From the IMG/VR virus record IMGVR_UViG_3300050821_010409, positions 1-30,159 of that record: a stretch of DNA of 30,159 nt, one strand, 5' to 3'. The translations under genes and the position numbers were made by a program. Source of the stretch: a virus (Duplodnaviria; Heunggongvirae; Uroviricota; Caudoviricetes). This document shows positions 14,299 through 15,029 of this stretch, piece after piece (the first letter of the stretch is position 1; every line of letters starts with the position of its first letter). The notes under the pieces are model-generated. The model ran no database searches, was not told the origin of the DNA, and saw nothing but the letters and a program-made list of their open reading frames with translations.

Positions 14299-14448
14299 TG
14301 GGCAGCGGGAGACTTGAACTTCCGAAGCGCGAGAAGAAAAAGGGTCTTCTCTGCCATGCGCCGTGCCTGCCCGGTGACAGGAGCGGTGGTGAAGCGTGAA
14401 GTACACATTTCTCCGCTCCCCGAGCGCCGGGCAATTCCTGGCCTGCCC
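14299..14448 (-). ncRNA. tRNA/tmRNA-like structured RNA, copy T1
   Basis: Acceptor GGGCAG/CUGCCC+A, T-arm cggaag-UUCAAGU-cucccg (one mismatch), two long internal arms; homologous to T2 and T3. Confidence 0.6.
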
Positions 14449-14488
14449 TTGTTTCTTTTATTCAGTTTATGCTTCACGATCCCGCTGG

Positions 14489-14515
14489 CTGGCCGAGGTC
14501 TTCTGGCGGCACGTG
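14489..14515 (-). ncRNA. Single TIGR-like unit between structured RNAs
   Basis: tggctggcc gaggtcttc tggcggca; coordinates approximate. Confidence 0.5.
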
Positions 14516-14532
14516 CTTATTCAGTGGTGAGC

Positions 14533-14644
14533 GCCCTCGCCGTATCCGCCTTCCGTGCGCTCGTGCATGTCAGTTGACGCACCCGATGCAGGCGGCTATT
14601 GTAACCGGCAGTTGCCTAACCGTGGAGGTCCGGCCGGCGAGGGC
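14533..14644 (-). ncRNA. Multi-stem structured RNA X1
   Basis: Closing stem gccctcgccg/cggcgagggc; conserved blocks shared with X2. Confidence 0.5.
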
Positions 14645-14648
14645 CTCG

Positions 14649-14813
14649 TGGGCAGCAGGAGAGTCGAACTCCTGAAGGCACGGAAAAGCATCCTGCTAAT
14701 TAGAAGCCTTCCCTGGCGTGCGCCTTGCCTGCCCGGTGACAGGAGCAGAGAGCTGAGACTGGATTTCTCCAATAAGCCTGCTCCCCGAACGCCGGGCAAT
14801 TCCTGGCCTGCCC
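14649..14813 (-). ncRNA. tRNA/tmRNA-like structured RNA, copy T2
   Basis: Acceptor GGGCAG/CUGCCC+A, T-arm caggag-UUCGACU-cuccug, arm GCCCGG..GGGAGCAG/CUGCUCCU..CCGGGC. Confidence 0.7.
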
Positions 14814-14840
14814 TTGTTCCCCTTATTCAGTTGTCTTGCG

Positions 14841-15004
14841 TGGACAGCAGGAGGATCGAACTCCTGAAGGCACGGGAAGAGATTGTAGTGTAAGGCCCTT
14901 CCCTGGCGTGCGCCTTGCCTGCCCGGTGACAGGAGCGGCGAGGATCACATGAATGTTGCTGTGTGATTCCGCTCCCCGAACGCCGGACAATTCCTGGCCT
15001 GCCC
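14841..15004 (-). ncRNA. tRNA/tmRNA-like structured RNA, copy T3
   Basis: Acceptor GGGCAG/CUGUCC+A (third pair G.U), T-arm caggag-UUCGAUC-cuccug; compensatory change relative to T2. Confidence 0.7.
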
Positions 15005-15029
15005 TTGTTCTCCTTATTCAGTTATCGTG

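What the first reader, a model, noticed from the sequence alone, without database searches (positions are those of the whole stretch)
14299..15023. Three tandem tRNA/tmRNA-like RNAs with a fixed scaffold and two variable arms, inside the TIGR locus
Seen (- strand): each copy has a conserved leader AACUGAAUAARRRRAACAA, a 6-bp acceptor GGGCAG/CUGYCC plus discriminator A, and a stemless GG-containing D-like loop (GCCAGGAAUU). Arm 1 is GCCCGG-internal loop-GGGAGCRG with a 26-30 nt variable tip. Arm 2 has an 8-18 nt variable tip, then a 6-bp T-arm with a UUCRANY loop. Compensatory changes (GGGAGCAG/CUGCUCCU vs GGGAGCGG/CCGCUCCU; GGGAAG/CUUCCC vs GAGAAG/CUUCUC) and G.U pairs support folding on this strand. 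Acceptor plus T stem totals 12 bp, as in tRNA. T3 has G3.U plus discriminator A, the established AlaRS identity set. There is no anticodon loop and no tmRNA tag ORF. Inference: an unassigned ncRNA family. Options are RNase P/Z processing punctuation for the guide transcript, decoys for anticodon nucleases or other tRNA-sensing defences, or a second programmable RNA whose variable tips carry specificity.
Basis: partly seen in the sequence, partly recalled or inferred. Interest (0 to 1): 0.88.

Follow-up and report, generated by a model that had tools for sequence, protein, structure and literature searches.

The report
tRNA-like RNAs punctuating phage TIGR arrays
Three copies of an unclassified tRNA-shaped RNA sit between the guide-RNA arrays of a phage TIGR-Tas system, and they most likely act as built-in cutting marks for the host's tRNA-processing enzymes, a link not described in the TIGR papers I could search.

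Summary
Three homologous RNAs lie on the - strand: T1 15004..14841, T2 14813..14649 and T3 14448..14299. Each follows the leader AACUGAAUAARRRRAACAA. Each folds into a gapless four-way junction: a 6-bp acceptor stacked on a 6-bp T-arm with a UUCRANY loop, plus two long arms with variable tips.

ARAGORN and Rfam assign no family. The neighbouring 298/319-aa protein folds like TasR/TasH with no nuclease domain, so the TIGR context is real.

Orthologues sit in the same slot in related metagenomic phages. Two are full size (158 and 156 nt). Three are reduced, to 70, 47 and 47 nt, keeping only the acceptor, a GG loop and the T-arm. Covariation supports every helix except the acceptor, which is invariant.

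The selected core is therefore the minimal tRNA minihelix, and the arms and tips are dispensable. This disfavours a second programmable RNA. The missing anticodon loop disfavours anticodon-nuclease decoys.

Best reading (about 0.4): an RNase P / tRNA 3'-end processing module that separates TIGR sub-arrays. Main rival (about 0.25): a stand-alone tRNA mimic. One relative has its own promoter-like box and an encoded CCA, and the acceptor matches tRNA-Phe of some Actinomycetota.

A second covarying ~110-nt RNA ('B') shares the locus.

The parts
14841..15004 (-). T1: tRNA-like RNA, 164 nt, with G3.U70 and discriminator A. By the partial likeness of its tips it is probably the orthologue of the single copy in L027.
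   Evidence: (181 bits)
14649..14813 (-). T2: tRNA-like RNA, 165 nt. Element B2 follows 5 nt downstream.
   Evidence: 179.6 bits
14299..14448 (-). T3: tRNA-like RNA, 150 nt, with a short arm-2 tip and one A.C mismatch in the T stem.
   Evidence: 156.2 bits
15005..15023 (-). A/U-rich leader AACUGAAUAAGGAGAACAA before T1. It takes the place where the next AGCCAGCCA repeat of the upstream sub-array would be.
14814..14832 (-). Leader before T2.
14449..14467 (-). Leader before T3. It contains TAAACU, the only TANNNT-like hexamer among the window's leaders.
14516..14525 (-). Orphan leader motif ACUGAAUAAG after B2, followed by a one-unit TIGR stretch rather than a T RNA.
   Evidence: the same arrangement occurs in L027
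15236..15344 (-). B1: second conserved structured RNA, ~110 nt, a three-way junction with conserved GGUUACAACAG, CCUGCUUCGGG and CGGAAGG.
14534..14643 (-). B2: second copy of element B.
15408..15624 (-). TIGR dual-repeat sub-array: AGCCAGCCA alternating with CAGCCA, period ~32-35 nt.
15035..15196 (-). TIGR sub-array directly upstream of the T1 leader.
14066..14290 (-). TIGR sub-array directly downstream of T3.
13498..14076 (-). Conserved 180-192 aa protein of unknown fold. In the six relatives with a T element it is always the gene that follows the T/TIGR region.
13070..13489 (-). TIGR sub-array between the 192-aa gene and tas.
12137..13096 (-). tas gene: 319-aa ORF, called as 298 aa in the database. 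Coiled coil plus Nop-like domain, no nuclease domain (TasA type).
   Evidence: Foldseek top hits TasR 9mty and TasH 9w04, prob 1.00, TM 0.55
15649..16581 (-). 310-aa phage protein (phrog_10079, function unknown), the gene upstream of the RNA region.

Best explanation
T1-T3 belong to a small family of tRNA-like RNAs. They are transcribed with, or next to, the TIGR sub-arrays of a TasA-type TIGR-Tas locus. The carriers are a clade of high-GC phages, probably phages of Actinomycetota.

The functional core is the acceptor/T-arm minihelix with a GG-containing loop, which is the minimal shape recognised by tRNA-processing enzymes.

Proposed mechanism. Host RNase P cuts at G+1 and releases the upstream sub-array with its A/U-rich leader. 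The tRNA 3'-end machinery (RNase Z or exonucleases, then the CCA-adding enzyme) cuts after the discriminator and frees the downstream sub-array or element B. T is left as a stable tRNA-like by-product. The element therefore defines array ends that Tas cannot make itself, because Tas cuts only within edge repeats.

The two long arms are lineage-specific expansions. Their scaffold is under selection in some phages, but they are not needed for the core role.

Shown here: the structure, its conservation and covariation, the synteny, retention of the minihelix when the arms are lost, and the Tas fold. Inferred: transcription, RNase P/Z cleavage, and any effect on tigRNA maturation.
For: (1) The structure is real. 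98% of cells are paired, against 41-60% when partners are slid, and 15 of 45 pairs carry compensatory changes. An independent MAFFT plus RNAalifold run on 5 sequences gives the same fold, with 8 compensatory pairs.

(2) Orthologues occupy the same slot, between TIGR sub-arrays and upstream of the 175-220 aa gene, in six related loci representing five phages. These are L027 at 158 nt, L028 at 156 nt, L029 at 70 nt, L041/42/43 at 47 nt and L044 at 47 nt.

(3) The reduced forms keep only the acceptor, a GG linker and the T-arm. On the Tas tree, full-size and reduced forms are interleaved, and L028 (full) is sister to L042 (47 nt). The arms were therefore probably lost at least twice while the minihelix was always kept (some branch supports are moderate).

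(4) tRNA-like details. Acceptor plus T-arm give a 12-bp stack. The T loop is canonical. GG falls at positions 10-12. The base after the discriminator is C in all copies read, and L028 encodes a full CCA. The leader is A/U-rich in a 65% GC genome.

(5) Other tRNA-like elements. A different 97-nt element sits inside another TIGR array of L027. Two further 6+6-bp minihelices lie in an intergenic region near 120 kb of the same genome.

(6) No sigma-70-like promoter or intrinsic terminator was found on the - strand across 13900-15800, which is compatible with one long precursor.

(7) From established knowledge and memory: acceptor/T minihelices are sufficient substrates for RNase P, RNase Z and CCA-adding enzyme. 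Plant tRNA-snoRNA dicistronic precursors are matured by RNase Z, and the TIGR paper PMC12045711 cites that work.
Against: The acceptor sequence GGGCAG/CUGCCC does not vary in 7 sequences, while the T stem and the base of arm 2 covary freely. Shape-reading enzymes would not require that.

The internal loops and bulges of the arms are conserved between the window, L027 and L028, which pure punctuation does not need.

In L028 a copy of the phage promoter box GTTATACTG..AGAC lies directly upstream of T, and another lies directly downstream. There T looks like a gene of its own.

More distant relatives have long TIGR arrays without any T. Tas proteins process arrays themselves (PMC12045711).

There are no expression or cleavage data.
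Confidence: 0.4

Rival explanations
1. T is a stand-alone, trans-acting tRNA mimic. It is transcribed from its own promoter, matured like a tRNA and CCA-tailed. It then engages a factor that reads the acceptor stem, such as an aminoacyl-tRNA synthetase, EF-Tu, a tRNA-sensing host defence, or the conserved 180-192 aa protein. Its place in the TIGR locus would reflect co-regulation rather than processing.
For: The acceptor sequence is invariant while other helices covary. GGGCAGG...CUGCCC plus A73 equals the acceptor of tRNA-Phe(GAA) in about 20 of 301 sampled Actinomycetota genomes. L028 has a promoter-like box upstream and an encoded CCA. The arm scaffolds are conserved across three phages. 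The 180-192 aa gene is always adjacent.
Against: There is no anticodon loop, so PheRS identity and anticodon-nuclease decoy roles are unlikely. Position 3:70 is inconsistent for AlaRS. The discriminator is A in some phages and G in others. The 47-nt forms have a non-canonical UCCGAnU loop. The genome carries no CCA-adding enzyme, PTH2 or Ro gene. The window's leaders lack a good -10 box.
Confidence: 0.25
2. T is a structural cap or insulator for untranslated array transcripts. A compact tRNA-like fold at the start or end of a sub-array would protect it from 5'-end-dependent RNases or 3' exonucleases, or would keep neighbouring units from misfolding. No endonucleolytic cleavage would be needed.
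For: T lies at sub-array boundaries in every locus. The fold is GC-rich and stable, at -65 to -81 kcal/mol. The arrays are C-rich and unstructured.
Against: A plain hairpin would do the same job. Retention of tRNA-specific features (T loop, GG loop, 12-bp stack, C after the discriminator) is left unexplained.
Confidence: 0.12
3. T is a second programmable RNA. The variable tips of the two arms carry target specificity for Tas or for another effector, in the manner of the two loops of an IS110 bridge RNA.
For: The scaffold is fixed while the tips are wholly different in T1, T2 and T3. Tas is structurally related to IS110 recombinases.
Against: Relatives with 71-76% identical Tas carry forms with one or no arm and no tips. 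Tip lengths vary (26-30 nt and 9-20 nt) and the tips mostly extend the hairpin. No 11-mer from any tip matches elsewhere in the genome. The tips of T1 and L027 are still partly alike by eye, so they look like freely drifting sequence.
Confidence: 0.06
4. The copies are decaying tRNA pseudogenes or attP-type tRNA fragments with no present function.
For: ARAGORN and Rfam do not call them. The acceptor equals that of a tRNA-Phe.
Against: Compensatory changes maintain every helix that varies; the acceptor does not vary. Three copies are kept in the window. The minihelix is retained through independent deletions. No integrase lies next to them.
Confidence: 0.04

Closest known systems
tRNA-like processing signals: mitochondrial tRNA punctuation, plant dicistronic tRNA-snoRNA genes cut by RNase Z, MALAT1/mascRNA, and engineered polycistronic tRNA-gRNA arrays
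   Same: A tRNA-shaped module placed between non-coding units so that RNase P and RNase Z make the ends. tigRNAs are box C/D-like guides bound by a Nop-domain protein, so plant tRNA-snoRNA precursors are the nearest natural parallel. The TIGR paper cites that work.
   Different: T has no anticodon arm and is not a functional tRNA. It carries two large conserved expansion arms. Processing has not been shown. This would be a bacteriophage example tied to TIGR arrays.
tRNA-like domain of tmRNA
   Same: An acceptor stem stacked on a T-arm, a GG-containing D-like loop without a true D stem, and a body emerging where the anticodon arm would be.
   Different: There is no tag reading frame and no pseudoknots. 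G3.U70 occurs in only one of seven sequences. Two arms emerge instead of one P2 helix. The length is 47-165 nt rather than ~350 nt. ARAGORN and Rfam do not call it.
Phage-encoded small stable tRNA-like RNAs and RNase P substrates: T4 species 1/2 RNAs in the tRNA cluster, and P1/P7 C4 RNA (recalled from memory, not tested here)
   Same: Phage RNAs that are not decoding tRNAs but are matured by the host tRNA-processing machinery.
   Different: No sequence relation was tested, the genomic context differs, and none of them is linked to guide-RNA arrays.
IS110/IS621 bridge RNA
   Same: A structured ~150-190 nt RNA with two variable regions, encoded next to a protein of the Nop/IS110 RNA-binding lineage.
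   Different: Bridge RNA specificity lies in internal loops of fixed geometry. Here the variable parts are terminal, vary in length and are dispensable. There is no DEDD/Tnp recombinase, and the core is tRNA-like.
Bacterial Y RNA-like YrlA
   Same: A non-coding RNA containing a tRNA-like module.
   Different: In YrlA the 5' and 3' ends form the Ro-binding stem and the tRNA-like part is internal. The genome has no Ro/TROVE gene and Rfam gives no match.

Membership tests
tRNA (Rfam RF00005 / ARAGORN) | Cloverleaf with a 7-nt anticodon loop on a 5-bp stem | tested here: not met
   ARAGORN finds nothing at 14299-15023. Arm 2 is a long irregular hairpin with 9-20 nt tips.
tRNA (Rfam RF00005 / ARAGORN) | Score above the family threshold | tested here: not met
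   No Rfam hit at gathering score. The best hit is tRNA-Sec at 16.6 bits against a gathering score of 47, and it covers only the acceptor, T-arm and part of arm 2.
tRNA (Rfam RF00005 / ARAGORN) | Acceptor stem coaxial with a T-arm carrying a UUCRANY loop, plus a discriminator base | tested here: met
   6 + 6 bp, loops UUCGAUC/UUCGACU/UUCAAGU, discriminator A. The T stem covaries in 3 of 6 pairs.
tmRNA | G3.U70 alanine identity pair | tested here: not met
   G.U in T1 only. The other sequences have G-C (5) or A.C (1).
tmRNA | Tag reading frame, pseudoknots, and detection by ARAGORN or Rfam | tested here: not met
   ARAGORN at default settings reports no tmRNA. Rfam reports none. The length is 150-165 nt.
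RNase P / RNase Z / CCA-enzyme minihelix substrate (functional class) | Continuous ~12-bp acceptor/T helix with a T loop, a single-stranded 5' leader and a 3' trailer | tested here: met
   Present in all 7 aligned sequences and in L044. It is retained in the 47-nt forms.
RNase P / RNase Z / CCA-enzyme minihelix substrate (functional class) | Actual cleavage at +1 and after the discriminator | not testable with these tools
   Needs end mapping or in vitro assays.
TIGR tigRNA unit | Alternating edge and loop repeats with ~9-nt spacers, ~36-nt units | tested here: not met
   T contains no AGCCAGCCA/CAGCCA repeat register. It interrupts the arrays.
TIGR-Tas locus (context) | Nop-domain Tas protein next to dual-repeat arrays | tested here: met
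   AF2 model with pLDDT 84.5. Top Foldseek hits are TasR 9mty and TasH 9w04 (E 1.6e-6 to 4e-5, TM 0.55), followed by IS110-family recombinases. Arrays are shown. Pfam Nop itself did not hit.
IS110 bridge RNA | Adjacent DEDD/Tnp recombinase and two programmable internal loops | tested here: not met
   The neighbouring protein lacks a nuclease or recombinase domain. The variable parts are terminal and dispensable.
Y RNA / YrlA | Ro60 (TROVE) partner and a Ro-binding terminal stem | tested here: not met
   No TROVE match in the 122-kb record, which is about 81% complete. No Rfam hit.

The most novel reading that the evidence does not exclude
T is a phage-made tRNA mimic descended from a tRNA-Phe. 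It is matured and CCA-tailed by the host. Its conserved acceptor engages a specific host or phage factor, and the two expansion arms act as exchangeable binding modules. It would be a natural tRNA-scaffolded effector RNA working with TasA and the conserved 180-192 aa protein, rather than a passive cutting mark.
Probability: 0.15. Interest if true: 0.85.

Novelty: new variant of a known kind. Interest (0 to 1): 0.6.

Why it matters
How TIGR arrays are transcribed, how their outer ends are made, and how sub-arrays are separated is still unclear. The published model covers only Tas cleavage inside edge repeats.

A natural tRNA-like module inside TIGR arrays would show that some phages hand part of guide-RNA maturation to the host's RNase P and RNase Z. 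That is the trick engineers use in polycistronic tRNA-gRNA constructs, and plants use it for tRNA-snoRNA genes.

The finding also supplies a small, well-defined RNA family, with natural 47-, 70- and 150-165-nt versions that amount to a ready-made deletion series. A second unknown covarying RNA (B) lies in the same locus. Both can be tested by simple end mapping.

Tried and rejected
- Rfam at gathering score on the window and on five related loci gave nothing for T or B. Rfam at E<=10 on 14200-15100 gave only chance-level hits.
- ARAGORN gave nothing in the region. With relaxed settings it produced only implausible permuted-tmRNA calls.
- blastn of the region against 50,697 phage records gave no match.
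- Exact and degenerate DNA patterns were scanned. IMG/VR gave 0, 0 and 11 hits. Metagenome contigs gave 2 hits and GTDB genomes gave 3. None was a real homologue by the covariance model or by T-stem pairing.
- The covariance model found nothing in 19 distant viral loci and nothing convincing in the outgroup Tas loci L030-L035, even with filters off.
- A search for 11-mers of the variable tips elsewhere in the genome found none.
- K-turn or box C/D motifs in the arm internal loops were looked for by eye and not seen.
- The leader as a sigma-70 promoter: the scan found none on the - strand. Only T3 has a TANNNT-like hexamer.
- The 192-aa protein has no PDB fold match and no Pfam or PHROG family. 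The 310-aa protein matches only unnamed phage clusters.
- The second 309-aa gene of L027 is not a paralogue of the 310-aa protein.
- PTH2, CCA-adding enzyme and TROVE are not found in the genome.
- Whole-record searches of the relatives' contigs were not possible because the records are not held. Three contigs could not be fetched because the files were too large.
- + strand control folds were not obtained. The batch calls exceeded the length limit and were not repeated.
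Full report
**What is there**

The window is the first 30,159 nt of a 122,432-nt linear IMG/VR virus record, about 81% complete, with 60-77% GC in 1-kb windows.

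Three homologous elements lie on the - strand at 15004..14841 (T1), 14813..14649 (T2) and 14448..14299 (T3). Mean column identity is 83-84%. Each is preceded by AACUGAAUAA-RRRR-AACAA. A fourth ACUGAAUAAG without an RNA lies at 14525..14516. The motif occurs nowhere else in the genome.

**Fold**

Each copy folds into the same structure, with z = -3.0, -4.0 and -2.5 against shuffles. The RNAalifold consensus is a four-way junction with no unpaired junction nucleotides. Its parts are:
- an acceptor GGGCAG/CUGYCC plus discriminator A;
- a 6-bp T stem with a 7-nt UUCRANY loop, directly abutting the acceptor 3' strand, giving a 12-bp stack;
- arm 1: GCC/GGC, an AGGAAU bulge, UGYCCGG/CCGGGCA, an internal loop, GGGAGCRG/CYGCUCCU, and a 26-30 nt tip;
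- arm 2: a 7-bp base, a 6-nt bulge AYGSMA, a 7-bp stem, and a 9-20 nt tip.

ARAGORN finds no tRNA or tmRNA here. Rfam 15 has no match at gathering score, and the best sub-threshold hit is tRNA-Sec at 16.6 bits.

In an 811-nt context fold the arms, T2 and the neighbouring element B2 still form.

**Context**

Genes with coding-like GC3 on the - strand flank the region. The 319-aa ORF at 12137-13096 is called as 298 aa in the protein database. It has no Pfam hit, but its AlphaFold model (pLDDT 84.5) matches TIGR-TasR (9mty) and TasH (9w04 and related entries) first, and IS110/IS621 recombinases next. It has an N-terminal coiled coil and no nuclease domain, so it is TasA-like.

Alternating AGCCAGCCA and CAGCCA repeats with a 32-35 nt period fill 17730-17097, 15616-15408, 15188-15035, 14281-14066, 13481-13070 and 12119-12001. 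This fits the published description of dual-repeat TIGR arrays: two alternating 8-12-nt repeats with ~9-nt spacers (PMC12045711). The T RNAs therefore really do sit inside a TIGR-Tas locus, at sub-array boundaries and on the gene strand.

**Relatives**

Proteins 49-89% identical to Tas, and 53-65% identical to the 192-aa protein, exist in metagenomes. I fetched their contigs. A covariance model built from T1-T3 finds only the three copies in the whole genome. In the relatives it finds one element each, always in the same slot between TIGR sub-arrays and upstream of the 175-220 aa gene:
- L027, 158 nt, 126.8 bits;
- L028, 156 nt, 114.5 bits;
- L029, 70 nt, with arm 1 gone and arm 2 short;
- L041/42/43, 47 nt;
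- L044, 47 nt.

The 47-nt forms are just the acceptor, a ~15-nt GG-containing linker and the T-arm. More distant Tas loci (L030-L035) have long arrays but no T.

**Covariation**

On the seven-sequence alignment, 98.1% of cells pair, against 41-60% for slid controls. Fifteen of 45 pairs show double changes, and 0 of 500 shuffles reach that. That alignment was fitted to the model. An independent MAFFT/RNAalifold run on the five full-size sequences recovers the same structure with 8 compensatory pairs.

The T stem (3 of 6 pairs), the arm-2 base (5 of 7) and arm 1 all covary. The acceptor never varies, except position 3:70, which is G-C in 5 sequences, G.U in 1 and A.C in 1.

**Which part is selected**

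On a Tas tree, full-size and reduced forms are interleaved within one clade. L028 (full) is sister to L042 (47 nt), and the window plus L027 (full) group near L044 (47 nt) and L029 (70 nt) (some supports are moderate). The arms of L028 and of the window are homologous in sequence. So the full form is probably ancestral, and the arms were lost more than once, each time sparing exactly the minihelix.

By eye, the tips of T1 and of the L027 copy still share part of their sequence. That fits unconstrained drift at 87-89% Tas identity rather than programmed exchange. No tip has an 11-mer match elsewhere in the genome.

This argues against tips that carry specificity. It points to the acceptor/T minihelix as the functional core.

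**Further tRNA-like traits**
- The base after the discriminator is C in every copy read. L028 encodes a full CCA.
- GG lies at positions 10-12 in all forms.
- The leader is the only A/U-rich stretch around.
- A second, unrelated 97-nt tRNA-like element sits inside another TIGR array of L027 (14510-14606). It has an 8-bp acceptor, a T-arm and a 5-nt loop where the anticodon loop should be.
- Two further 6+6-bp minihelices lie at 120206..120160 and 120052..119989 of the same genome, in an intergenic region without TIGR repeats. My strict finder gives 5 hits in the genome against 1.5 expected, so these two are suggestive, not proven.

**Mechanism**

The best-supported reading is that T is a cis processing module. 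RNase P would cut at G+1, and tRNA 3'-end enzymes would cut after the discriminator. This separates sub-arrays and creates outer ends that Tas, which cuts within edge repeats, cannot make.

Minihelices are known to be sufficient substrates for RNase P, RNase Z and the CCA-adding enzyme (established knowledge). Plant tRNA-snoRNA precursors are a natural precedent for box C/D-type guides, and the TIGR paper cites them. No promoter or terminator was predicted on the - strand of the region.

Transcription and cleavage are inferred, not shown.

**What does not fit, and the main rival**

Three things are not needed for punctuation: the invariant acceptor sequence, the conserved arm loops in three phages, and the layout in L028.

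In L028, T is flanked on both sides by GTTATACTG..AGAC. That box precedes ribosome-binding sites and start codons at several places in this genome. At 4637 it is paired with a -35-like TTGACT. The window's leaders align with that promoter-plus-leader but have mostly lost the -10 consensus.

GGGCAGG...CUGCCC-A is also exactly the acceptor of tRNA-Phe(GAA) in about 20 of 301 sampled Actinomycetota genomes, and those genes have encoded CCA. None of these claims rests on the unpublished genome G121.

A stand-alone tRNA mimic descended from tRNA-Phe therefore remains a serious rival.

Decoy for anticodon nucleases, AlaRS charging as a general property, Y-RNA-like function (no Ro gene), a bridge-RNA-like guide, and pseudogenes are all weak, for the reasons given in the rival and membership sections.

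**Host and literature**

The host is probably an actinobacterium. The only hit in cultured phages is a distant one in Arthrobacter phage Talia1610, the genome is high in GC, and the tRNA-Phe lead points the same way. This is inference.

The TIGR papers I could search do not mention natural tRNA-like elements or RNase P.

**Element B**

A second structured RNA shares the locus. B is ~110 nt and lies in the window at 15344..15236 and 14643..14534. It is also present in L027 (two copies), L028, L029, L041 and L044 (two copies).

On a plain MAFFT alignment of nine copies, 93.8% of cells pair, against 35-51% for slid controls, and 13 of 27 pairs have compensatory changes. It is a three-way junction with invariant GGUUAC, CCUGC and CGGAAGG, and it has no Rfam match.

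The order B - TIGR - T - (B) - TIGR - gene is conserved. The array RNA is C-rich and untranslated, and so a likely Rho target. An antitermination or leader role for B is a guess that I did not test.

**Verdict**

This is a real, covarying, unclassified tRNA-like RNA family tied to a TasA-type TIGR locus in a narrow phage clade. Its most likely role is RNase P/Z-dependent punctuation of the arrays (0.4), with a tRNA-mimic role as the main alternative (0.25). The principle is known, but the family and its link to TIGR were not found in the literature I could search. I rate it a new variant of a known kind, interest 0.6.

Noticed in passing
window 15236-15344 (-) and 14534-14643 (-); also L027 8138-8256 and 8716-8830, L028 8664-8812, L029 4012-4124, L041 2014-2138, L044 2534-2660 and 2742-2848: Element B is a second conserved ~110-nt structured RNA, a three-way junction with invariant GGUUAC, CCUGC and CGGAAGG. 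It shows strong covariation: 13 of 27 pairs are compensatory, and 93.8% of cells pair against 35-51% when slid. It has no Rfam family. It always lies upstream of a TIGR sub-array or directly after T. Its function is unknown; antitermination or a leader role is only a guess.
   Followed up: partly
window 4637 (+), 5792 (-), 17075 (-), 19772 (-); also 51072, 93249 of the genome; L028 1093, 8901, 9088; L027 6493: The box (G)TTATACTG..AGAC recurs about 25-30 nt upstream of ribosome-binding sites and start codons. At 4637 it is paired with a -35-like TTGACT, so it is probably the phage's promoter. In L028 it flanks the T RNA on both sides and also drives a TIGR array. The window's ACUGAAUAAGG leaders align with it but mostly lack the -10 consensus.
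   Followed up: partly
outside the window: genome 120160-120206 (-) and 119989-120052 (-) (L045 about 4161-4207 and 3990-4053): Two more 6+6-bp acceptor/T-arm minihelices (47 and 64 nt, discriminator A followed by C) lie 110 nt apart in an intergenic region without TIGR repeats. tRNA-like minihelices may be used more widely in this phage.
   Followed up: partly
L027 14510-14606 (+): A different 97-nt tRNA-like element is embedded directly between TIGR units of a second array. It has an 8-bp acceptor, a T-arm, and a 5-nt loop in place of an anticodon loop. It shares GCGCACGCCAGG with arm 2 of T. ARAGORN calls it a 95-nt tRNA-His, which is doubtful.
   Followed up: partly
T1-T3 acceptor (window 14299-15004) versus L059-L068: GGGCAGG...CUGCCC plus A73 is identical to the acceptor stem of tRNA-Phe(GAA) in about 20 of 301 sampled Actinomycetota genomes. 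GGGCAG also occurs in a tRNA with anticodon CAC. This is a lead to ancestry or host, not proof.
   Followed up: partly
window 14841-15004, 14649-14813, 14299-14448 (-), internal positions about 81-88 of each RNA: The 3' strand of arm 1 repeats the 5' end (GGGCAGGC). It could pair with the 3' end instead, giving an ~85-nt alternative tRNA-like fold. This is what the weak Rfam tRNA-Sec hit used. The compensatory change in L028 keeps arm 1 and weakens the alternative fold.
   Followed up: partly
window 10284-10356 (+): ARAGORN's only call in the window, tRNA-Ile(GAU), lies inside an ORF (10221-10748) that has a PHROG match (phrog_4786). Rfam's tRNA model does not score it at gathering. It is probably a false positive.
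   Followed up: no
window 17440-17480 (-): A run of about nine GAT/ATG triplets interrupts the TIGR patch at 17097-17730.
   Followed up: no
window 19833-20135 (-) and 20199-21119 (-); L041 5953-6204: There are two HNH/NUMOD4 homing-endonuclease-like genes just beyond the locus. A related phage carries a group I intron (Rfam RF00028, 59.8 bits).
   Followed up: no
L027 12685-13077, L028 11907-12341, L032 8235-8645 and two unfetched contigs: A PTH2-type peptidyl-tRNA hydrolase gene lies within 1-2 kb of tas in four of five relatives, including one without T. It was not found in this genome's 122 kb.
   Followed up: partly
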